In this document: one piece after another, positions 9,190 to 63,127 of the stretch
Layout: the number at the start of each line of letters is the position of its first letter
Position numbering within the stretch: the first letter of the stretch is position 1
Assembly: GCA_965113315.1 (NCBI GenBank)
Contig: OZ220371.1
Source: Podarcis vaucheri
Taxonomy: Eukaryota
Reading direction: 5' to 3' (one strand)
DNA: 64,000 bases
Notes under the pieces: model-generated
What the model was told of the DNA's origin: nothing
Databases searched by the model: none
Seen by the model: the letters and a program-made list of their open reading frames with translations, nothing else
Program-made: the position numbers and the translations under genes

Positions 9190-9272
9190 ACAAAAAAATA
9201 ATAATTGCCCAGTAGCACCTTAGAGACCAACTAAGTTTGTTCTTGGTATAAGCTTTCGTGTGCATGCACACT
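9190..9272 (-). mobile_element. Penelope-like element pseudo-LTR fragment, truncated inside the hammerhead core
   Basis: Near-identical to the 31256-31322 sequence. Flanked by the direct repeat tctggaacat (9180-9189, 9273-9282). Confidence 0.8.
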
Positions 9273-27619: not shown

Positions 27620-30017
27620 CCCATTTAGGCATGAGGCTGGCTGGTTTATCTTCATTCGTTAGTCATGAAAGTCAATACTTTTACACTTATACCCTTATAG
27701 AACTTACAAAATACATACTATGGATACCCAAACCAATATGTTATTATTCAGAGATACATACCATGCACTTTTCAGTGTCTCCTGACAATGATTGGTTTTG
27801 TAGGTCCTTCATTTTCTATCCTTGTGAGTTTAAGATTTTGGCTCATCTCTCTAATTAGAAACATAAGATTGGATAACTTTTGAGTTTTGTGAAATGGTTC
27901 TGTTTACTTGCAATGGGAAAATGAAGAAGCAATCAACAAAAACATATGACTCTGTGGACACATATTTCACAGTCTCATCCAGACAATTTTTTATATCCTG
28001 CAGAAGTGGGTTTGGAGGCAATTCAAAAGTATCCCTTCTAGGCATGTTTATGTAAGAATGTAATGTGAGATATGAGTTTTGTCTTCTCCATTTTCATGAT
28101 GGATGACCTGATAATGGGTGACACAGTCTATTTCACCTCTGTCTCACTACATAGATGCACTGGGCCATATATACCTTCAAAGCAGTATTCCCTAAAATGT
28201 TTCTATCAGCATCTCCATGATGACCCTCTAGGCATCAAATATGAACAGTGAGAACATGCAAAATTATGCATTTTGGAGATAGTTTTCATCTCCCTTCTTG
28301 CAGAGGTTTGCCAAACTACAACCAGAAGCATATAAGAACTTTTTATTTGGGCAATCCTTCAGTGGTCAGGAGTAGTAAGCATGAGTGATTTTAGCTCCAT
28401 GCATGCTTTTTAATATATTCCACATTTTCAGAATGTATAATACTGTTTTCTACATTGTTCCCATTGGGGACAGCCCAAGTTAAAGATCTAAACATATGTA
28501 GGAATAAAGGCTGAACAGAGAGACCTGTCCTGCAGAGTCTTGCAAAGATAGTTGCCATTTTATGGTTCAATAATACTGAAATTAACAAAATTCATTTATG
28601 ATTAGAAATTCCTTGCAGGGTATGAGTGTGGGTTTTAACCAAAGAAGGTGGAGCATTGACATCCTACATACAGACTTGTTATGGGGGGCGTGATCCAGCT
28701 GGCACAGAATCAGCTATTCGACATCCAGCATGATGAGTAAGGACTCCTAAGAGAATGCAACAATAGAGCAATAATTCAATTTTTCACCCATAATTAAACC
28801 ATCACTATTAGATGTGTATAGCTCTGTGTTGCAGCTTAAACCGGGACCTGATGTGTTCAATTGTTCTGGTTTCCCTATCACATTCATAAATGCATACGTT
28901 ATCCATCTCCCTATTCACAAATGCTTTCCAGCTGCTAAGAGCCTAAAGGTTAAGATTTTCAGTTCGATGCTATAGATTCAGGAAACCATAAGTAAGGTAG
29001 CACCTAGATAACTTGATTATTGTACTCCCCACCTTCCTCAATCAGTTTATGTCCTCTTTTAGGATAGCCTTTAAACTTTTGTTTCAGGGGTTGATAATTT
29101 GATGTAACCTTTGCTTTCTGTCAACAAGCTCAACTTTCTTGCATTTCATCTCCATCCTTACCAGAAAACTTGTGGAAATGCTTCTCTATCTAGATCGAGG
29201 TGGAGAACACTTTTCAGCTTGAGGGCCACATTCCCTTATGACCATCCTTCTGGAGGCCACATGCAAACAGTGGGTGTGACTCAAGTGGGAGTGGTCTGAC
29301 ACACACCACTCTCCATTCTCCATTCAGACAAGAAAGAGGTATTATCACAGTTCAGGAACACATTCCAGTCAAGCAAAAACAGCAGAAGAGGGCACAGAGC
29401 AGGACCAGTGAAGGATATGGCCTGGAAGAGTGTGGTCTGGACTGGGCAGAGTCCTGAGGGCCAGGTAGAGAGACCTGGAGGGCCACATGAGGTTCCTCAT
29501 ACCTGATCTAGGTCAAAGGATCTAAGACACACAAGCTTTGTTACATGCAATCCTTTAGCTTAATTTATCCATGTTAATTTGATCAGGTCACTAGTTTTCT
29601 GCATCAGTTATGCTAGATCAGTAGCTGTCTTTTCCCTTGGTAAGAATAAAGCCAGATGTTCCAAAAAGATGTCCCACTAATTCCCTCAAGCAGCCATTCA
29701 TCTTAAGATATTTGTTTGTCTTTAAGATACCACAAGACATTTTGTCCTCAACATTTGTGTCTCAGCAAGCATGGTAATATCTCACTGTGGCCTGTGCCTC
29801 ATTCTGAAGCCTTCCTAACCTGGGTGGGATTCTCTCTACTCCCTACTTGTAAATACTTACTCCTGCACATGTGCAGTATATCCATGACAACCCCATGCAC
29901 ACATTTTGCAGGATAGTATCTTTGAAGGAAACTGTGAAGTCCTGCCTTACCCATTACCCATTTTATTCAACTTAAGTCGCCCCTTTCTAGTTATCGCAAA
30001 ACCTTGTGTTATAACAG

Positions 30018-31215
30018 ATTTGTTGGAAAACAAAACCCCTAGATGGGTGTCACCAGTGGAGGCTAAAGCAGTGAAGAAACTCAATATGGAGGTCGGATGG
30101 CCGAAGTATTGGGAAATTTTGGAACAGGATGGAGATAAGTTTAAACTACAAAGCCAGGAGAAATTGAAACATAAAGTACAAAATTGGTTTCAATATTGTC
30201 AAATAATGGAGTTTTTTAAACAGGATAGGAAAATTGGCTTCCAGGTGGAAAAATCAAAACTAGAAACTGAGTTACTAGAACCCAATACTAAGAATTTATC
30301 TAGAATGTATAACTTGTTGCTGAAATGGAGTACACAGGACGAAACAGTCAAATCGGCTATGATTAAGTGGGCACAGGATGTTGGGCACAATATCATGGCA
30401 GCTGACTGGGAATGGTTATGGAACACTGGTATTAAATTCACGGCATGTAATGCCTTAAAGGAAAATATTATGAAAATGGTTTACAGATGGTACATGACTC
30501 CAGTCAAGCTGGCAAAAATTTATCATTTGCCCGATAATAAATGTTGGAAATGTAGAGAGACTGAAGGCACCTTCTACCACCTCTGGTGGACGTGCCCGAA
30601 GATTAAGGCTTTCTGGGAAATGATCTATAATGAAATGAAAAAGGTACTTAAATGTACTTTTCCTAAAAAGCCAGAGGCCTTTCTCTTGGGCATTGTCGGC
30701 CAATTGGTGTTAAAAAGGGATAGAGCTTTTTTTATGTATGCTACAACAGCAGCAAGAATACTCATCGCGAAGTATTGGAAGACACAAGATCTACCCACTC
30801 TGGAAGAATGGCAGATGAAAGTGATGGACTATATGACATTGGCTGAGATGACAGGCAGAATCCGTGACCAACGAAAGGAGACGGTGGAAGAAGATTGGAG
30901 AAAATTTAAAAGCTATCTTAAGGACTATTATAAACTTAATGAATGTTAAAGTGTTGTGGTTTTTAGAAATAAAGGGATACAGTGATATAAGGTCAGAATA
31001 TAGAGAGGAATAAGATGACAGAGGGTGGAAGTAACAATTGGGAGTTGCTAAAAATTATGGACATTGGGATGCAGAAAGGGGGGGGAAGGGGAAGTCCAAG
31101 AAAAGAGGCTTATGAAAATATGTTATGAAACTATACGTGTATGTTTGTCTTTTTAAGTGTTTGTTCGTTATTTAAAAACTTTGTAAAACCAATAAAAATT
31201 TTATTAAAAAAAATA
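30018..31215 (+). mobile_element. 5'-truncated L1: intact ORF2 C-terminal ~310 codons plus 3' UTR
   Basis: CCHC knuckle CWKCRETEGTFYHLWWTC, stop at 30949, AATAAA at 31191, A-tail, and TSD tataacag (30010-30017, 31216-31223). Confidence 0.93.
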
Positions 31216-31293
31216 TATAACAGTTACAATGAGTTTTCAAAATAAAAAAATTCCTTCCAGTAGCACCTTAAAGACCAACTAAGTTAGTTCTTG

Positions 31294-31331
31294 GTATGAG
31301 CTTTCGTGTGCATGCACACTTCTTCAGATAC
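31294..31331 (-). ncRNA. Minimal type I hammerhead ribozyme motif, inverted copy
   Basis: Exact reverse complement of 31498-31535. Confidence 0.8.
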
Positions 31332-31497
31332 ACTGAAACAGAAGTTGCCAGGTCCTGTAAGACCTATTGCAGTCGTTAAGAGTCGTCAACAGGCTCATCT
31401 CAGCTATCTGCCAATCTCCCATTCCCACCACCCTTCTGAGTAATACCCCTCTCCACCTTCTCACTATATAGAAGGATCTGGCAACCTCTGTTTCAGT

Positions 31498-31535
31498 GTA
31501 TCTGAAGAAGTGTGCATGCACACGAAAGCTCATAC
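31498..31535 (+). ncRNA. Minimal type I hammerhead ribozyme motif (Penelope pLTR)
   Basis: GUAU-CUGAAGA-A-GUGUGC-AU-GCACAC-GAAA-GC-UC^-AUAC: cores CUGANGA and GAAA, stem I GUAU/AUAC, 6-bp stem II, and a vestigial palindromic stem III (AGCU). Confidence 0.8.
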
Positions 31536-32640
31536 CAAGAACTAACTTAGTTGGTCTTTAAGGTGCTACTGGAAGGAATTTTTTTTATTTTGACTATGGC
31601 AGACCAACACGGCTACCTATCTGTAAATGAGTTTTCAAATATGCATTATATCAGCCTTCCCCAATTTGGTGCCCTCCAGATGTTCTGGACTGTTAACTCA
31701 TCTCATACCTGACCATTGGCCATGCAGATTGGGTCTGATGGGAACTGTAGTCCAAAACATCTGGAGAGCACTAGGTTTGGGGAATGCTGCTTTACGTAAT
31801 AGCTCATTGATTCTTTCTGGTCCCTGCAGGTTATAAGAGAACCTCCTCCCTTACCTTCTAACCTACTCCAAAAAATGATTCATGCTAGCTGCTTAGCAAA
31901 GACAAAAATCTGTCACCTGTGAAACAGATAACAGTATGTGCTGCTGTAAACACAGCCAATGTAACAGTAGACCACATGCTAGTTTCTTCTCATTTGGGTC
32001 AGTTTGGGTGCTGAGGCATCAGCCACAATCAATTCTTCTCCACTGTTCTCACTAACACATTCCTAACATTCTAGCAGACAGCCTTCTCTCTGTTATTCTT
32101 GATTTATTTTTTACTCCTTCTTTCCTAATTGTTTTAAGATACTTGACGCTTTTTGCAGCATGACATTTTGCTGACTTATGAGCAGCTCAAAACAGATGCT
32201 TGCTAGGAAAACAGCTGAGATTAAAACCATGCCTTTTGTTTAGGCCTAGGTGGAGTGCTTCTGGGAAGCCAGTTTCTAATGGTTCATCTGGTTACAGGAT
32301 GTTGCTTTAGGGCTAGGGGTAATGGAAGCATTTAGCATGTTTTTTGCCTCCAAAAGAAGGACCCTTAAGAGAGTTGCTGGCCATCAGAATTGCTGGTTGT
32401 CAGCAGATGCTATCATGAGTAAATAATATTTGAAAGCTCATATTTTAAAGTGTTTAACTGCATTCCTATAATAAAAACCATTTCTGAAAGGTATCTCCTT
32501 TATGATAACTTAGGGCACTATCCAGTTACCGTAAATTTAAACTACTTTTCAATCTGATTGGTTTCAAAAGGAAGCCACTTTAGGGCAAAACTACATGTGA
32601 TACTTGCCTTTCAAGACAAACTTTTTCTTTTTTCTTTATA

Positions 32641-46803: not shown

Positions 46804-48837
46804 TATCTGAAAATCCTTTCAATACACAATTAGTAACACACCATCACCTTAAAGCACATTCTTTTCCCCAAAGAATTCTGGTCACTGTAGTTTGTTAAGG
46901 GTTGCTGTGAAATGTAACTCTGTGAGGGTGAACTACAGGGCCCATAATTCTTTGAGGAGAAGTATGTGCTTCATATGTGATTTAAAGCTATAGTACGTAC
47001 ACAGCCTTACTTCAGTACTAACAATAGGACTGTCTTCCATTGTACCTGAGGGCACCCGCCTAACTTAGCAGGTGTGTACAGCTTTGTCCTCCAACATTCT
47101 TCATTGGCAGTATTTCAGCCAGGGCTATATATTGTATATCAAGTAGCTGCACAGCCCTTTCCCCCCATCCTGTAGCATGATCAAACATAATGCGCAGATT
47201 TTGAAACAGTGCCTTTTTTGTCCTCACGGGAATGCCAGAATTATGGCCCCAAATCTTTTCTTTAATAGCTAAGTATGGCTGTCCTCCTTAATTAGGAAAA
47301 CTGGAGCCATGATAACATTAAGTATTTGCTATTAGCGATCTGTGGTAGATTTATATCACAAATTTCCATCACAATCTCCAAGAGATTGACTTCCAATAAG
47401 AAAGAATTATTACATTCAATGTAGAATCAGACAGAAATTAGGAAGGTCCTCTTGAAATGATTTTTTTAAAGACAAAAACAATTTAGAAAACTTTAAATGT
47501 CTGGGAAGTGTAGTGGAATACTTTTTAAAAAACACAATGGACTAGCAAGAGCAAAAAATAAAAATAAAAGATGAATGGTTAAATAAAATGTTATTTCCTA
47601 AAAGAGACCCACTGACTCAGCTCACCTAACTCAGAAGAAATTCAGAAGTTACTTACTTGAAAGCTAACCCTACTGAGTTTAATGTGGCTTATTCATAGGT
47701 ATGTGTGTACATAGGACTGCAGCCTAAGTAGAACTGAAAGAAAACCTTTCTAAAAACTGGTAAAAATCTCAGCACTGAATCACCCCGTGCATGCAGTAAA
47801 CAAGATGCACTATAAAAAAATGAAGCACATATTTGAGGAAACACAAATATGCTCAGTGAAGAAATACTTTCAGGTTCTAAAAAATTCTGCTCAGATCTTT
47901 ATTACAAGCTAACTTAAAACCTAGCAGTGAGAGTTCAAAACCCCTTTGAATGCTGAACTTTCAATTACAACTGAGTAATTATAACTGAAGTCTGAAGGAA
48001 GAAAGCACAATTCATTCTGAATGCCATTTTTATTATAAACCCTGTTGCCAGCTAACCACAGTTTGCATGCTTGTAAAACCCTAAACTGCTATCTCCACAT
48101 TTCCAAAATGCTTTGGCTTGTTACCACCTAGGAATGCCATGTTAAAGTCCTATGACTATCATCATGATTTCTTAGAACCAGCACCCAGGCAGCCATCTTT
48201 TGCTCAGTGCAATTATTCAGTACAATTAAGTTTATTGTGAAATTGGTGCTGCAGAAAATCCAGTGAGTGAAAATAACCCATTATGCATTTGCAGTCACTG
48301 TAAAAGTTCATTAGCACCTTTGTGTTTGTGTGTGATTTGTCATGCATAGTGTCCCACCTTTAGATCTCTACATGTTACATATGTGTAGAGGGTATCTCTA
48401 AGCGCAGAACATACATTGTTCTTAAAACAATTTAATAATAATAATAATAATGTGGAGGTCTTGCACAATATCAGTTTATCATTCTAGTCCAACCGTTATC
48501 TAGTCCAGATAAATATCACTCTTATGCAAATATTCAGTATTAATGTGGGACGAACGGAAACATGCTAATTGTATAGCTAGTGACATTTGCTCTTTTAGTA
48601 AAGGTACACAAATACACAAAGATAAAGAAATATCTGACTGCATGCCCCAAACAGAAAAAGATAGTGAAGGGTGAGCAAGGAGTGGTTGAGGGACGGAACA
48701 GCAGCAGCAACAACAAAAACACCTCTCCATATATGTTCTGTCAAGCTCCACCCACTGATGTGGATGGCAAGTGGCAGAAGAGTAATTAATATCATGGGAA
48801 TATGTGGGAACTAATCTGTCAAAGAGAGATAGAATAC

Positions 48838-48899
48838 CTAGATGTGTAATCTCGGGCGCCCCTCCAGCAGAGCGCCGCCGCCGCGCTGGCTCTGCCTGT
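48838..48899 (-). other. Probable non-coding first exon of an unidentified minus-strand gene
   Basis: Starts ~29-31 nt downstream of TATAAAAG and contains no ATG. Ends at the candidate donor CTAG|GTATTC, exactly where GC content drops. Confidence 0.55.
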
Positions 48900-50830
48900 C
48901 GACGCTTGGCGCGTCCGCGGCTTTTATAGGGCACCCGGCGCGCACCAGCTCGATAACGGGCACCGGCGCGGCGGGGGGCGCCGGGCCGGGGGCGGGGAGC
49001 GGCCGGCCTGTCTCCTTGGCAACCCCATTGAGCAGCGCCGGCTCCCCCGGGAGGGCCATCCCCCCGCGCCGCCGATCGCCAACACCGCCGACGCTGTGGC
49101 TGCCCGAGCCCGAGCCCGAGCCCGTCAGTCAATCAGGAAGGAAGGAAGGAAGGAAGGAAGGACCCCCATGCGAATCTAAGACGGGAGAAGAGGGCAGAGC
49201 AAAGGGGGTCCTTTCCCCAACCTCCGGCTCTGAGACTTCCCTGCGCCCCAGAAAAGCGAAAGGATTTTCTCTCTTTTTTATATATATAAATATTTTATTA
49301 AGTTTTCAAATACAAAGTTAGAAACATACACTGAAGAAAAAAGTAAAAGAACAAGAAAAAGAAAAAAAGAAAAAGAAGAAAATAAAACCAACCATTCAAC
49401 ACATTTTTTATATAACTAACTGGACTTCCTCGCATCTCCCTTACCCTGCATTCTTTATAATAAAGATATCAGCAAATTATTACCTTGTTTCGTACCTTAT
49501 TTTGTACTTTTCAAATACTATACCTCTAAATTTAACATACTTTTCATCAGTTACTTATATCTTAAATTAAACATAGTATTACCTTAGATTTTGACCTTTT
49601 CTTACTTAAAATATAATTTCCTGTTTCCCAAATCTAATTGCTGAAGCTATAGTTTCCGAATCGTGTAAATTTTTAACATTCATACAACTTATATTGTTTT
49701 TGTAAATAGTCCTTAAATTTTTTCCAGTCCTCTTCCGTTGTTTCTTCTCCCAAATCTCGGATTCTGCCAGTCATTTCAGCCAGTTCCATGTAGTCCATCA
49801 ATTGCGTCTGCCACTCTTCCAGTGTGGGCAAATCTTGTGTCTTCGAATATTTTGCGATAAGTATTCTTGCTGCTGTAGTTGCATACATAAAGAAAGTTCT
49901 ATCCTTCTTTAACCCTTTCTGGCCAACAATGCCCAAGAGGAAGGCCTCTGGTTTCTTGGGAAAGGTATACTTAAAAACATTTTTTAACTCATTATAGATC
50001 ATTTCCCAGAAGGCCTTCACTTTTGGACAAGTCCACCGGAGGTGAAATAATGCCCCTTCAGCCTCCTTACATTTCCAACATTTATTATCAGACAGGTGAT
50101 ATATTTTTGCAAGCTTGACTGGGGTCATGTACCACCTATAAATCATTTCATAATATTTTCCTTCAAGGCATTACATGCCGTGAATTTCATTCCGGTGGTC
50201 CATAACCTTTCCCAGTCCTCAAACATGATGTTATACCCAATATCCTGAGCCCATTTTATCATGGCTGATTTGACTGTCTCATCCTGAGTGATTTTCTCTT
50301 CAACCTGCCCTCCATCCTCTTGCGGGAAACTCTTTGCCTGCCCTGCCCGTATCTCGTTTTTGCTTTTTAATTCCACACACGCACCCTTCGGACTTCGTGG
50401 CAATCGGGCACGCGGGTGCGTTTCCTAAGAGAGTGAGGACCCCCGCCTCCTCCCCACCTGCTCCCTCGCCAGCCAGCCAGCCAGCCGCGCACCCTAGCCG
50501 GAGAGCCCCGGCCGTCCCCGTCGCGCAATCGGCTGGATCTCCCTTCAGCAGGCCGGGCTCACAACTCGGCCCAGGGACCCCCCAGCAGCGGATCTCCGGC
50601 CCAGCGGAAGAATCCGGCAACAAGCCCCCTCCTCCCCAATCGCTCCGCCGAAATACGCTCCAAAACCCCCCAGATAGGCCGCCGGCCGCCAAGTCTCGTG
50701 GCGCCCTGAGCGAGGGTCTCTCCCCAACACCGCCACCTCGAACTGCGTTCTCCCGGCTATCCGAGCGAAGCAGCGGCAGGACCCCGGTATGGGCCCCCCC
50801 AATATTTTTTATAAGTCGGCGCCCCTGATA
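48850..50830 (-). promoter_or_regulatory. CpG island / Pol II promoter, split by an L1 insertion
   Basis: Dense CpG at 48850-49260 and 50300-50830. TATAAAAG (minus) at 48921-48928, GC box GGGGCGGGG at 48989-48997, X-box-like GTCTCCTTGGCAAC at 49010-49023. Confidence 0.8.
49273..50289 (-). mobile_element. 5'-truncated L1 (ORF2 C-terminus plus 3' UTR)
   Basis: Translation matches the 30-kb L1 (QDETVKSAMIKWAQD, CWKCKEAEGALFHLRWTC), with one frameshift near 50145. T-rich tail at 49274, and TSD gattttctct (49263-49272, 50290-50299). Confidence 0.93.
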
Positions 50831-57608: not shown

Positions 57609-58315
57609 TTTGTTTGTTTGTTTTCAGACTGCAAGCATATAGCCACTTACCTTGGAACTGACTTCTGAACATGCATGAAGATGATACCAACGGTAGTATT
57701 TTAAAGGGTAGCATTTAACATTGTAAATCATTAACTGCAAGTGTCTTGTCACAAAAGCAGTAAGTATGTATTGAGTGAATGCTTTTCTTTTTAGTTATTT
57801 ATTTTATTTAACCAAATTTATTTACTGCTTGATTGTAGTAAAACCTCTGGGCAGTTTACAAGAAGCATTAAGGTGACTGATATTAAGATGAATGAGGTGT
57901 GGAGAGTGAGGCTTATATGGGCACAGCAGGAGTGTCAGGTGCTCAGAGTTCAGCAGGCTGCTCAGCCTGCGTCACCACACTTACCACTGCTGATATAGGG
58001 GTAACCTCTTCTGCATAGGTTAGCCTGTGATGTGAATCCCTTCATCTTAAACCTGGGGTCAGCAACAAGGCTACCCTCCAAATACTGTTGAACTATAATT
58101 TCTACCAACCCTGTGCATTAGCCACACTGGCTGGCTGGCTGGGGCTGATGGGAGTTATAGTTCAACATCTGGATGGCATGACTTTAACTACACATTAATT
58201 AAAGTATCCATTATACTCACCTTGAAAACAAATGCATCTATCATGGCTAAGTACTAGGGCCAAGCACATACTCTCAAAACAGGCCCACATCATCTACCTC
58301 ATAAAGGAATACATA

Positions 58316-58669
58316 CAGTGGTACCTCAGGTTAATTATTTAATTCATTCCGGAGGTCCGTACTTAACCTGAAACTGTTCTTAACCTGAAGCACCACTTTA
58401 GTTAATGGGGGCCTCCTGCTACTGCCGCTGCGCCGCCGCTGCATGATTTCTGTGCTCATCCTGAAGCAAAGTTCTTAACCTGAGGTAATATTTCTGGTAG
58501 CACCTTAAAGGGAAAAAAAGCACCTTTTAATTTTTATTTATTTATTTATTTATTTGACTATGGCAGACCAACACGGCTACCTATCTACTACTGTAATATT
58601 TCTGGGTTAGCGGAGTCTGTAACCTGAAGCGTATGTAACCTGAAGCTTATGTAACCCGAGGTACCACTG
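58316..58669. mobile_element. Mariner MITE with a Penelope fragment nested at 58498-58592
   Basis: MITE TIRs with TA. The insert carries tagcaccttaaag and gactatggcagaccaacacggctacctatct, flanked by TSD gtaatatttctgg (58485-58497, 58593-58605). Confidence 0.88.
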
Positions 58670-58679
58670 TAGTTATGGT

Positions 58680-58810
58680 TACAGATAGGTAGCCATGTTG
58701 GTCTGCCATAGTCAAAATAAAAAAATTCCTTCCAGTAGCACCTTAAAGACCAACTAAGTTAGTTCTTAGTTGGTCTTTAAGGTGCTACTGGAAGGAATTT
58801 TTTTATTTTG
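58680..58810 (-). mobile_element. Penelope pseudo-LTR end with inverted duplication (palindrome), lacking the hammerhead
   Basis: caaaataaaaaaattccttccagtagcaccttaaagaccaactaag followed closely by its reverse complement. TSD actgtagttatggt (58666-58679, 58811-58824). Confidence 0.87.
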
Positions 58811-61684
58811 ACTGTAGTTATGGTATTTGGGACTTTAATTGGGAGTCCAACAGTGATATACAAGATCTCATTTAGGCCATCCTTTTAAGAGAAAGAACAA
58901 CTTTCTTGGTTATGTGTACACAAACTTTTGAATGCTCCTAGCCAAGTTCCAGTAAGACAATGAATATATTCTTGTTTACTCTGCATTACTGATTGTTCCC
59001 AAAAGATTTGACCTGTATAGTATTCAGACCACAAGTATTTAGAATCGCCTCCAACAGAGTACCGCTGATATAAAACTATTATAATCTTCACTTTTTAATA
59101 TATAACATTTGTAGTGTCAAATATAAACTGGGCAGGGTTGCGCTGGCACCAATCCTATTTAAGTCTAGCCAGAAGAATAAAAGTTCTTTGCCAAAGAAGC
59201 TAGAAAAGCTTTCATCACAAACACCCAGGCCATCAAATCTTGGCTGGAAACATCTAGTACTTTCACACTGAGAAAAAAGATTCCAGGTTGGTCCATTTCT
59301 GTACCTGGTACTGTCTCTAAGCACTATACACAGGTAGTGAATGTCGGCAAAATCTGAAGCAACTCTAGTGCACCTATCCATTTGTCAATTTACCATGTGT
59401 TTGCCATATGGTTCTTGAACATGCATAGTATGGAACTTGTTACAATAAATCCTTACATTGGACCAGTTTACCCCACGTAGAATTAACTTTCGGTTGCATG
59501 GTGGTCTGAAGCTTAGCCATGGGCAATTTCAAGTAGAGGTTTCAGAAATGATCAATTGCATTTTGAACTTATTTTTTATACTTCCTTGTTTATTAAATGG
59601 ATTTATAATCCCCTTTTAAAGACAATTCTCCACAAATCTATTTTAGCATGTAGGCAGGACTCCCATGTCATATATACAATATGTAGATAGAAAGACACAT
59701 ACATATTTACACACAAACACAAAAATACAGTATTCAACCATTTAGAATATTTCAGTCTTAACAAACCAAATTTCAAACCTGCACAAAAATAGCATCAGCT
59801 GCAATAAGTCAATGAAGGCCACAGAGAAGAAATGAGTATTAGGGTGCATTTGAAATTAGGAAGATATGAGATCTGCCCTATCTCACAAGGGATCAACTTC
59901 CATAATTATGGAAACACTGGTGGAAAAAAATGTGTCAGGATGGGGAGAAATTCAATTTTCTTTTCATTTTAATAAGCAACAACCTAATTTGCATTTCTCA
60001 AACCAAAACATGAACCCCAAAACCACTAGCCATTGAAATTCACACATCTTCCAATTTTCTGATGCTTTTCTCCAACCAAAGTGAACAAAAATGTATATAT
60101 TCGTGTTTATCAAACTTCATATATTCGTGAAAATAACATACAGAAATGCATTGTTATAGGGAAAGTTGTTTCCACAACGTGTATATTAGACAAAACTGCA
60201 TACAAAAAAGTATGCTGACAAATCATGAAGATTTTTTATTATCACGAATTCCTGAGGAAATGTGGGGAACTGAATTCAAGACTAGAAAAATGATAAACCA
60301 AAAGTTGACAGATCTGCCAATCTCTAGATTTCTATGCCTTTCTATGGAATATAAATCTCTATTACAGCTGTTGAGCTGGAAACACTCAGTGAGCTTGGAT
60401 GATAGAATTGGCTAGGATGGCATTCCAAGAGTGGTAAACTCTGAAAACTGACCAACTGGTGGCATCAAAATGCTAGAGAGGAATGACAGATCAGGTAGAG
60501 AGAAAAGAAATGGCAACAGACAGAAGTGAGTAACGGAGCTAGGAGGACAGAACTAGATAGGCCAGTCTTGTCCCACCCTTTCCCCTCCTCCTTCCCTCGC
60601 TAGGCTAGTGATGGGGTAAACATTTGATTCAGTTCACATTTAAAGGCAAATCTACAAAGTTCACCTATAACAAATCAATATGAGCTATCCTTTGAATTTT
60701 GCAATTATCTGAATTTTGCAACCAAACAGTGTTTACAAATATACTTATATTAGGCGCAATTTTGCATAAAAATGAATATTACACATAGCACTTTACCCCT
60801 TTTCCTGGCACATGTAGCTTATGCATACGGAGCTTGTGTTGGGCCAGCAGAAGAATTTCAGCTGTAATGTTGTGGCTTGGTCCTGTCGTACACGCAGCAT
60901 GGCAAGAGCTTGTGCACTCTACCCTCCAAGGAGAGAGAGGAGAGAGACGGAGGATTGCTCGTCTAAAATGTCCAACATCATGTCTGATAATTAAAATAAA
61001 TAAAGCATCTAGTTAGTACCATGTAGTTTCTGGAATTCCTCTTGGAAGTGTTCCTAACATAGTGTTTCATGGAACATCTTTTGTTGATTCAAACTGTGAA
61101 ATATCAAACCAGATGTAGAGAATTTCACTTGGAGGCGTCAAGAGAAGGAAGGAGACAGCTTTCATTAACAAAGATTACAACAATGAAAGTGCAGCTTTAT
61201 ATTCATTGAACAGATTTGTCTTTCATTTATTTCCACTTTTAGCCATGTGTCCTAGCGTTATTTCATTCTTTTCTTATTCTCTGTTGTATGTGTTTTCTCC
61301 CTACCATCATATCAGATTAGTTTCTTCCATCCCACATGTATCCATTTTATTCCCCCTCTCTCTAGTTTATGAAAAGGGTAAAGTGCTAGGTCAAATCTCA
61401 TCATGACTATCCTCCGCAGATATTTGAGCAAGGAATACTGAAATCTATATACACAATGCTATTGGTACACCAGGATAGTCAGCATGTCAATCAATTGATC
61501 TTTATTGCTGCAATCCAAGATCACTCACCAAATACAATTTTACAGTGTACAGTCCAGCAATAGACTATTTGGAATTAACAGGATGGCAAAGAGTCATCAA
61601 CATGTCTGAACTTTGTGTCAGTGGTCTGACTAAATCCCTTTGTGGTATCATCAGATTTAAAGGAGGGCTCTAGATTAGCACATT

Positions 61685-63093: not shown

Positions 63094-63127
63094 AAAATTC
63101 CTTCCAGTAGCACCTTACCCAGCACAT
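63094..63127. mobile_element. Penelope micro-insertion (~34 bp)
   Basis: aaaattccttccagtagcacctta between the direct repeats tatccaaacaat (63082-63093, 63128-63139). Confidence 0.75.

What the first reader, a model, noticed from the sequence alone, without database searches (positions are those of the whole stretch)
31238..31625. Two minimal hammerhead ribozymes, one per strand, inside a ~117-bp Penelope inverted repeat
Seen: GUAU-CUGAAGA-A-GUGUGC/AU/GCACAC-GAAA-GC-UC^AUAC at 31498-31535 (+) and its exact reverse complement at 31294-31331, in near-perfect inverted arms bounded by a 14-bp TSD. Established: Penelope-like pseudo-LTRs carry minimal type I hammerheads whose stem III is a tiny palindrome (here AGCU), and these are thought to cleave efficiently as dimers. 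Inference: a transcript from either strand contains one catalytic copy and one antisense copy. In the putative minus-strand pre-mRNA from the 48.9-kb promoter, the antisense arm is made first and should trap the ribozyme in a long hairpin. That would be a self-silenced intronic ribozyme and a possible ADAR/Dicer substrate. The ribozyme class is known; this regulatory reading is speculative.
Basis: partly seen in the sequence, partly recalled or inferred. Interest (0 to 1): 0.75.

Follow-up and report, generated by a model that had tools for sequence, protein, structure and literature searches.

The report
Back-to-back hammerheads in young Penelope insertion
A recent, truncated Penelope-like transposon insertion carries two back-to-back copies of a known minimal self-cleaving ribozyme, and the long hairpin predicted to silence them is likely a by-product of how these elements insert rather than a regulatory device.

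Summary
In detail: identical minimal type I hammerheads at 31498-31535 (+) and 31294-31331 (-), arms matching at 118 of 121 columns, a 14-bp target-site duplication and a one-sided ~32-nt tail. A contig from a relative (run X7) holds the empty site, so the insertion is young. The arrangement is published: opposite-strand minimal hammerheads 100-700 bp apart (Cervera 2014); inverted pseudo-LTR plus tail (Craig 2021). Three of five family copies in the window are head-to-head.

Trapping is predicted, but on both strands alike, so it follows from geometry and needs no host gene. The monomer has no stem III loop, and its stem I fails to fold in long RNA even without the second arm. No host exon was identified.

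A lead arose beside the finding. Among the 15 best-supported of 833 listed joints, from other copies in four DNA runs, 13 of 14 distinct classes end one arm at 31496-31499. That is the ribozyme's 5' edge, about 30 nt after a TATA box in the spacer. It suggests uncleaved RNA starting at the ribozyme is copied to its end from both target nicks. A splice acceptor, RT stalling and library artefacts remain rivals.

The parts
31228..31241 (.). Left copy of the 14-bp target-site duplication
   Evidence: Exact direct repeat; one copy only in the empty allele of run X7 (record 17)
31237..31356 (-). Inverted, 5'-truncated pseudo-LTR arm without tail and without the TATA-like box; first 5 letters shared with the duplication
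31294..31331 (-). Minimal type I hammerhead, minus-strand copy; predicted cut after the C at 31298
31353..31356 (.). 4-nt junction stretch that matches the arm beyond a mismatch; possible microhomology at the head-to-head joint
   Evidence: Alignment; role inferred
31357..31625 (+). Direct, 5'-truncated pseudo-LTR piece with tail; 31357-31472 is the unpaired spacer and starts with a splice-donor-like GTAAGA
   Evidence: other copies cover the spacer at high depth
31465..31471 (+). TATA-like box, 30 nt before the A of an initiator-like TCAGT (A at 31495); predicted pseudo-LTR promoter
   Evidence: 0.8% of window positions have such a box 28-33 nt upstream; untested
31484..31496 (+). Pyrimidine tract plus AG, splice-acceptor-like, ending one base before helix I; rival explanation of the junction boundary
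   Evidence: 8 of 10 pyrimidines; background about 1%; the D. virilis intron also ends at helix I
31496..31499 (+). Family-wide 5' end hot spot of arms in head-to-head junctions of other copies
   Evidence: 13 of 14 mirror-collapsed classes among 15 shown of 833 joints
31498..31535 (+). Minimal type I hammerhead: 4-bp stem I, core, extra A, 5-bp stem II with CAUG loop, loop-less AGCU stem III; predicted cut after C31531
   Evidence: fits the published consensus
31594..31625 (+). One-sided 3' tail, 32 nt (37 if the 5 shared letters are counted as target)
   Evidence: Absent from the inverted arm; same pattern at 58.7 kb; described in PMC8557442
31626..31639 (.). Right copy of the 14-bp target-site duplication
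30018..31215 (+). Neighbouring 3' fragment of a LINE (L1-like by recall) with poly(A) and its own 8-bp duplication (30010-30017, 31216-31223); a separate insertion 4 bp away
   Evidence: also absent from the X7 allele

Best explanation
This is a young, 5'-truncated insertion of a high-copy Penelope-like family, made of two head-to-head pseudo-LTR arms that each carry the family's ordinary minimal hammerhead, and the pairing of the two ribozymes is likely a passive by-product of insertion. Likely mechanism (inferred): the element's endonuclease nicked both strands of an AT-rich target 14 bp apart. One nick primed reverse transcription at the end of the tail, the other about 32-37 nt further in, at the pseudo-LTR end. 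The two cDNAs grew towards each other on uncleaved RNA and were joined, here through about 4 nt of microhomology. Any RNA that runs through the whole insert, from either strand, is predicted to fold into a ~120-bp duplex that buries the ribozyme. A lone copy would be nearly inactive anyway. Such an RNA could be edited or diced like other inverted repeats, with no sign that this matters to the host.
For: Shown: arms, one-sided tail and duplication; empty allele in X7, flanks differing at 3 of 957 letters; five duplication-bounded family copies in 64 kb, three head-to-head, and only this one with whole ribozymes; head-to-head joints of other copies in all four runs laid. Computed: trapping on both strands; stem I unfolded in long RNA without the second arm. 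Published: dual opposite-strand minimal hammerheads and low activity (PMC4209133); inverted arm plus tail typical (PMC8557442; PMC3846280); an Anolis element cuts and extends both strands, starts at two sites flanking the tail, and uses unprocessed RNA (PMC11167929). Weak support for two templates: the arms differ at a T-run whose length varies in the family (table 4).
Against: No RT/GIY-YIG ORF is attached and no full-length copy was retrieved, so family membership rests on structure and motif. Twin priming is not separated from cDNA fold-back: the 4-nt microhomology fits both. The two-strand chemistry comes from a Poseidon element that may be of another clade. Two arm substitutions are somewhat more than the flank divergence predicts (P about 0.06 for 2 or more). 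Runs X3 (same species label as the best holder) and X9 could not be scored for presence. No RNA could be examined, so a local effect is not excluded.
Confidence: 0.75

Rival explanations
1. One reading: a self-silenced intronic ribozyme whose hairpin is a functional ADAR or Dicer substrate in a minus-strand pre-mRNA from 48.9 kb.
For: Duplex predicted at -248 kcal/mol on the minus strand, with the ribozyme paired as it is made. A TATA box at 48922-48928 (-) sits in CpG-rich DNA. The arms hold 73-74 adenosines per strand.
Against: The same trapping holds on the plus strand. Stem I is unfolded without the arm. The site is empty in a close haplotype. No host exon in 149 of 293 frames scanned. Head-to-head is the commonest published layout.
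Confidence: 0.07
2. The second arm arose by fold-back: the first cDNA's 3' end paired with itself and was extended back along the same strand, as in the self-priming model of Arkhipova 2013.
For: 4-nt microhomology at this joint. Five of the 15 hot-spot joints shown have 2-3 shared letters in at least one run, all at the palindromic stem II (table 5). The model is in print.
Against: The joint class with most contigs (10, 5, 4 and 10 in the four runs) has both arms ending at 31498 with no shared letters, which fold-back explains poorly. Two of five window copies are single tail-less arms with duplications, so the inner site can prime alone.
Confidence: 0.3
3. The copy is itself a small transcription unit: the TATA box in the spacer would start a ~130-nt plus-strand RNA at the ribozyme's 5' edge, free of the antisense arm, able to fold, dimerise with RNAs from other copies and be mobilised in trans.
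For: TATA-to-initiator spacing of 30 nt. Stem I probability 0.64-0.86 for RNAs starting at 31495-31498. Junction hot spot at the same place.
Against: Promoter activity untested. The D. virilis promoter is TATA-less with the start 46 nt before an intron. The same site looks like a splice acceptor. Good folding of a short RNA is not specific to this start.
Confidence: 0.15
4. The junction hot spot reflects something other than a transcription start: a 3' splice site, RT stalling at stem I, a few amplified source copies, or library fold-back chimeras.
For: Acceptor-like site at 31484-31496 and donor-like GTAAGA at 31357. Only 15 of 833 joints were shown, chosen by support; their depths (about 7-2,400 per class and run) are small beside the roughly 1e6 summed over the family. 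The extra letters could be rare subfamily variants.
Against: 14 different classes share the boundary; none of the 30 ends in table 5 lies upstream of 31496; they occur in four runs of two studies; many have no microhomology; an extra G sits before 5 of 5 ends at 31498 that show an insert. One row of table 5c does end at 31494.
Confidence: 0.45

Closest known systems
Minimal hammerheads (min-HHR) of metazoan Penelope-like elements, Cervera and De la Pena 2014 (PMC4209133); nearest listed motif is the turtle Chrysemys picta row of Fig. S3
   Same: Core with an extra base before stem II, G10.1-C11.1, short stem I, loop-less palindromic stem III (G-C, as in the turtle row), U-rich 5' flank. Dual motifs 100-700 bp apart on opposite strands are reported for Schistosoma, and an opposite-strand second copy for a 5'-truncated Cotesia element.
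   Different: Stem II is 5 bp with a self-complementary loop. This exact motif is not among the 56 rows of Fig. S3 as read. That paper does not discuss intramolecular trapping in the parts read.
Tandem/inverted pseudo-LTR insertions with one-sided tail of EN+ Penelope-like elements (PMC8557442, PMC3846280)
   Same: Inverted 5'-truncated copy at the 5' end, 30-40-bp tail on one side, 8-14-bp duplication, TATA-like and initiator-like motifs in the pseudo-LTR.
   Different: Here no ORF remains; the whole insert is 384 bp. A shared junction boundary at the ribozyme's 5' edge was not seen in the passages read.
PAc (Poseidon) of Anolis carolinensis, Frangieh 2024 (PMC11167929)
   Same: Hammerhead at the pseudo-LTR end with an ATG near stem II; tail defined by two RT start sites; both target strands cut and extended; uncleaved RNA as template.
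   Different: Sequence kinship was not tested. Here the ATG at 31516 meets a stop after 9 codons.
Inverted Alu pairs as ADAR substrates (search listing only)
   Same: A long intramolecular duplex in read-through RNA.
   Different: Made by one insertion event, with a 116-nt spacer; transcription and editing unknown.
Non-LTR retrozymes (bioRxiv 10.64898/2026.07.22.740005)
   Same: Non-autonomous pseudo-LTR derivatives with hammerheads; 1 of 9 tested dimers cleaved.
   Different: Retrozymes are head-to-tail tandems that allow dimers in cis. This is head-to-head; no tandem array covers it.

Membership tests
Minimal type I hammerhead (min-HHR) | Core CUGANGA...GAAA...UH with stems I and II | tested here: met
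   0 hits in 300 shuffles
Minimal type I hammerhead (min-HHR) | Extra base between 9 and 10.1, G10.1-C11.1, palindromic 15.2-16.2 | tested here: met
   A31509; G31510-C31523; AGCU; compared
Minimal type I hammerhead (min-HHR) | Self-cleavage as a dimer | not testable with these tools
   Folding only: a stem-swapped dimer scores -11.1, an alternative dimer with 14-bp intermolecular stem II -30.6 kcal/mol
Rfam hammerhead families | Score above a family threshold | tested here: not met
   No hammerhead family at E up to 1 in 30-33 kb or up to 10 in 31470-31630
EN+ Penelope-like element | Pseudo-LTR holding a hammerhead near its 3' end | tested here: met
EN+ Penelope-like element | Inverted 5'-truncated arm with a 30-40-bp tail on one side | tested here: met
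   Focal copy and 58.7-kb copy; tiny version at 58.5 kb
EN+ Penelope-like element | Dispersed insertion with target-site duplication | tested here: met
   5 of 5 window copies, 10-14 bp; empty allele
EN+ Penelope-like element | Telomerase-like RT plus GIY-YIG ORF; clade (Neptune, Poseidon) | not testable with these tools
   Insert is truncated; no genome held; pattern scans gave no relative
Non-LTR retrozyme | Head-to-tail tandem units each with a hammerhead | tested here: not met
   Head-to-head; no tandem array at the locus
Conserved intronic hammerheads of amniotes (recalled: HH9, HH10) | Canonical stem III and deep conservation at one locus | tested here: not met
   No stem III loop; site empty in a close relative
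Intronic inverted-repeat ADAR/Dicer substrate | Transcribed, edited or diced in cells | not testable with these tools
   Only DNA contigs could be laid

The most novel reading that the evidence does not exclude
In this reptile Penelope-like family a TATA promoter starts capped RNA at the very 5' edge of the hammerhead. The protein primes from both target nicks, and both cDNAs run off that capped end, copying the cap as an extra G, and join head to head. The genome's inverted junctions thus record the element's transcription start and a twin-priming mechanism, and ribozyme cleavage would remove only a ~35-nt capped leader, acting as an off switch rather than a step of retrotransposition.
Probability: 0.3. 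Interest if true: 0.6.

Novelty: new member of a known kind. Interest (0 to 1): 0.27.

Why it matters
As a locus it matters little: one young copy of a very common repeat with a published layout. The side result matters more. How Penelope-like elements form head-to-head repeats, and what their hammerhead is for, are open questions. A high-copy family whose junctions share one boundary would let both be tested from a single assembly plus CAGE data. If many copies are head-to-head, such insertions may also be a large one-step source of near-perfect RNA duplexes in this lineage (extrapolated from 3 of 5 copies in one window).

Tried and rejected
Rfam: no hammerhead hit; the mir-2513, H19_2 and TCV_H4 matches are far below their thresholds.

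No whole genome is held. Pattern scans: 0 hits (metagenomes, viral contigs) and 4 hits of 20-24 nt that do not extend, judged chance; the clade stays open.

No RNA holder listed among 24 runs; this is no evidence on expression.

Host gene: a splice-pattern scan showed no recognisable exon. Pfam on 149 of 293 minus-strand frames of 40 aa or more below 48.9 kb (those of 53 aa or more) gave only RVT_1 above its cutoff. Plus-strand frames and shorter frames were not scanned.

A specific local 'anti-ribozyme' hairpin 5' of stem I was considered and largely rejected. The natural flank was lower than 95 of 100 shuffles only for a 6-nt extension; for 12, 24 and 50 nt it lay within the shuffles (25, 33 and 63 of 100 at or below it).

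X3 and X9: their left-flank contigs leave the window at 30010 and end 47 and 51 letters later, letters not shown; presence of the insert is unscored. Summed depth was not used as a copy number. The binomial figure ignores that joints were chosen by support and is not used as a P value.

Lunse 2017 is not held. Three look-ups of earlier findings returned nothing.

Full report
OBSERVATION. The 38-nt motif at 31498-31535 (+) is letter-identical to the reverse complement of 31294-31331. The arms 31237-31356 and 31473-31593 match at 118 of 121 columns and are 116 nt apart. A 14-bp direct repeat bounds the insert (31228-31241, 31626-31639). My descriptor for a minimal hammerhead finds these 2 sites in the window and 0 in 300 dinucleotide shuffles. 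Rfam lists no hammerhead here. Stem II folds as 5 bp with a CAUG loop, stem I has 4 bp, and stem III has no loop.

WHAT IT IS. The motif fits the published consensus for minimal hammerheads of metazoan Penelope-like elements, including the extra base before stem II, and resembles the turtle row of Fig. S3 (PMC4209133). That paper already reports dual motifs about 100-700 bp apart on opposite strands, and an opposite-strand second copy at the 5' end of a truncated element. An inverted 5'-truncated copy with a 30-40-bp tail on one side is described as typical (PMC8557442), and head-to-head as the most frequent inverted layout (PMC3846280). The window holds five copies of the family, all five with duplications of 10-14 bp. 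Three are head-to-head with the tail on one arm (31.2, 58.5 and 58.7 kb; the inverted piece at 58.5 kb is only 13-14 nt). Two are single tail-less arms (9.2, 63.1 kb). Only the focal copy keeps whole ribozymes. No RT ORF is attached and no full-length relative was retrieved, so the clade is open. That the host is a squamate reptile is my recall from its repeat content, not a call result.

AGE. I laid 4 of the 24 runs listed, all DNA contigs. In X7 (organism B) one contig joins 30017 to 31626 with four letters between, not shown. Four is the number of window letters between the neighbouring LINE's right duplication and the focal left duplication. That allele therefore lacks both insertions, and its flanks differ from the window at 3 of 957 letters. 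X3 (organism A) and X9 (organism D) leave the window at 30010 and cannot be scored. The family itself is covered in all four runs at summed depths four orders above the flanks; the tool warns that this is no copy number.

THE TRAPPING IDEA. Folding supports the physical claim: the full insert folds at -231 (+) and -248 (-) kcal/mol, ribozyme bases pair with the other arm with mean probability 1.0 and 0.92, and 0.95-0.99 in growing prefixes (equilibrium folds of prefixes, not kinetics). But the antisense arm precedes the ribozyme on both strands, since the ribozymes face outwards. Trapping thus follows from any head-to-head copy. It is also redundant. In the direct part alone stem I forms with probability 0.006-0.03, and random upstream sequence of 24-50 nt gives medians of 0.08-0.11. 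A published monomer of this type did not cleave and dimers cleaved weakly. The Anolis element's hammerhead cleaved only with its protein and was dispensable for insertion in vitro. One of nine Xenopus dimers cleaved. A TATA box does lie at 48922-48928 (-) in CpG-rich DNA, but no host exon was found in 149 of 293 minus-strand frames, so the intron is unverified. Against my reading: if the locus is transcribed, a ~120-bp duplex is a plausible ADAR or Dicer substrate on general grounds, and I could not examine any RNA.

MECHANISM. An Anolis Penelope-like protein cuts and extends both target strands, starts reverse transcription at two sites flanking the tail, and mainly uses unprocessed RNA (PMC11167929). 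I infer that nicks 14 bp apart primed one cDNA at the tail end and one at the pseudo-LTR end, and that these met head to head. This accounts for inversion, one-sided tail and duplication together, and for single tail-less copies. Fold-back of one cDNA remains possible, since the 4-nt match at the joint fits both. The arms differ at a T-run that varies in the family (table 4), a weak hint of two templates.

A LEAD BESIDE THE FINDING. Table 5 shows the 15 best-supported of 833 joints; the tool adds that some were not counted. All 15 join the left arm to the right arm, so I read them as head-to-head junctions of other copies. They collapse to 14 classes by mirror symmetry, and 13 end one arm at 31496-31499; none of the 30 ends lies further upstream, and a second cluster lies at 31508-31519. 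None lies at the cut site, so these templates were uncleaved. The boundary is 30-33 nt after a TATA-like box (31465) with an initiator-like motif (A at 31495); 0.8% of window positions have such a box at that distance. Among 11 of the 12 inserted-letter rows shown (of 793; one complex row left out), an extra G precedes 5 of 5 ends at 31498, as a copied cap would give, and an extra T precedes 6 of 6 ends at 31496; one end lies at 31494. RNAs starting at 31495-31498 fold stem I with probability 0.64-0.86. In the focal copy this box lies between the arms, so an RNA from it would escape the trap. Rivals are serious: the same place is acceptor-like (background about 1%), a donor-like motif opens the spacer, the D. 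virilis intron ends at helix I and its promoter is TATA-less, the extra letters may be rare variants, the joints were chosen by support, and library chimeras are not excluded. The data show a hot spot, not a majority.

LITERATURE SEEN. PMC4209133: main text parts 1-2 of 4, supplementary file 2 parts 1-2 of 3; file 1 could not be searched. PMC11167929: parts 1-2 of 4. PMC3846280: passages and Discussion. PMC8557442, PMC2377424, PMC6765202 and bioRxiv 10.64898/2026.07.22.740005: passages only. Lunse 2017: nothing, known through the review. Eight searches listed no paper whose title or abstract opening describes a junction hot spot at the ribozyme edge or antisense trapping of these ribozymes. 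Subscription journals, repeat databases and unseen supplements may hold it.

VERDICT. Real, correctly described and of a known kind. The regulatory reading is unlikely (about 0.07). Interest 0.27, most of it from the family-level junction pattern, which is checkable in one assembly.

Noticed in passing
window 30010-31241: A LINE 3' fragment (8-bp duplication, frame open to its stop) and the Penelope-like insert lie 4 bp apart; both are missing from the X7 allele, so two separate young insertions hit nearly the same spot.
   Followed up: partly
window 58310-58824: Two more family insertions within 100 bp of each other: a tiny head-to-head copy (13-bp duplication) nested in a short dispersed repeat, and a 131-bp head-to-head copy (14-bp duplication) whose arms both start 3' of the cut site.
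   Followed up: partly
window 9190-9272 and 63094-63127: Single tail-less arms with 10- and 12-bp duplications; the 9.2-kb copy is a diverged variant truncated at the 5' edge of stem II.
   Followed up: partly
window 31510-31523: Stem II is a perfect 14-bp palindrome; two RNAs are predicted to prefer a 14-bp intermolecular duplex (-30.6 kcal/mol) over a stem-swapped dimer (-11.1), which may compete with activity.
   Followed up: partly
window 31357-31496: The direct piece begins exactly at a donor-like GTAAGA and an acceptor-like site ends at 31496: a candidate 140-nt retained intron.
   Followed up: partly
window 31516-31545: ATG in loop II meets a stop after 9 codons; the 9.2-kb variant has a sense codon there.
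   Followed up: no
window 29200-30017: The window's left flank is closer to X7 (organism B; 3 other letters in 818) than to X3 (organism A; 9 in 809), suggesting shared polymorphism or gene flow.
   Followed up: no
window 48750-49130 (-) and 50300-50830: CpG-rich promoter-like region with a TATA box at 48922-48928 (-); the gene was not identified.
   Followed up: partly
window 31659-31781: A short inverted-repeat element (33-nt arms, 82%) lies just right of the insert; it gives a sub-threshold microRNA-family match.
   Followed up: no
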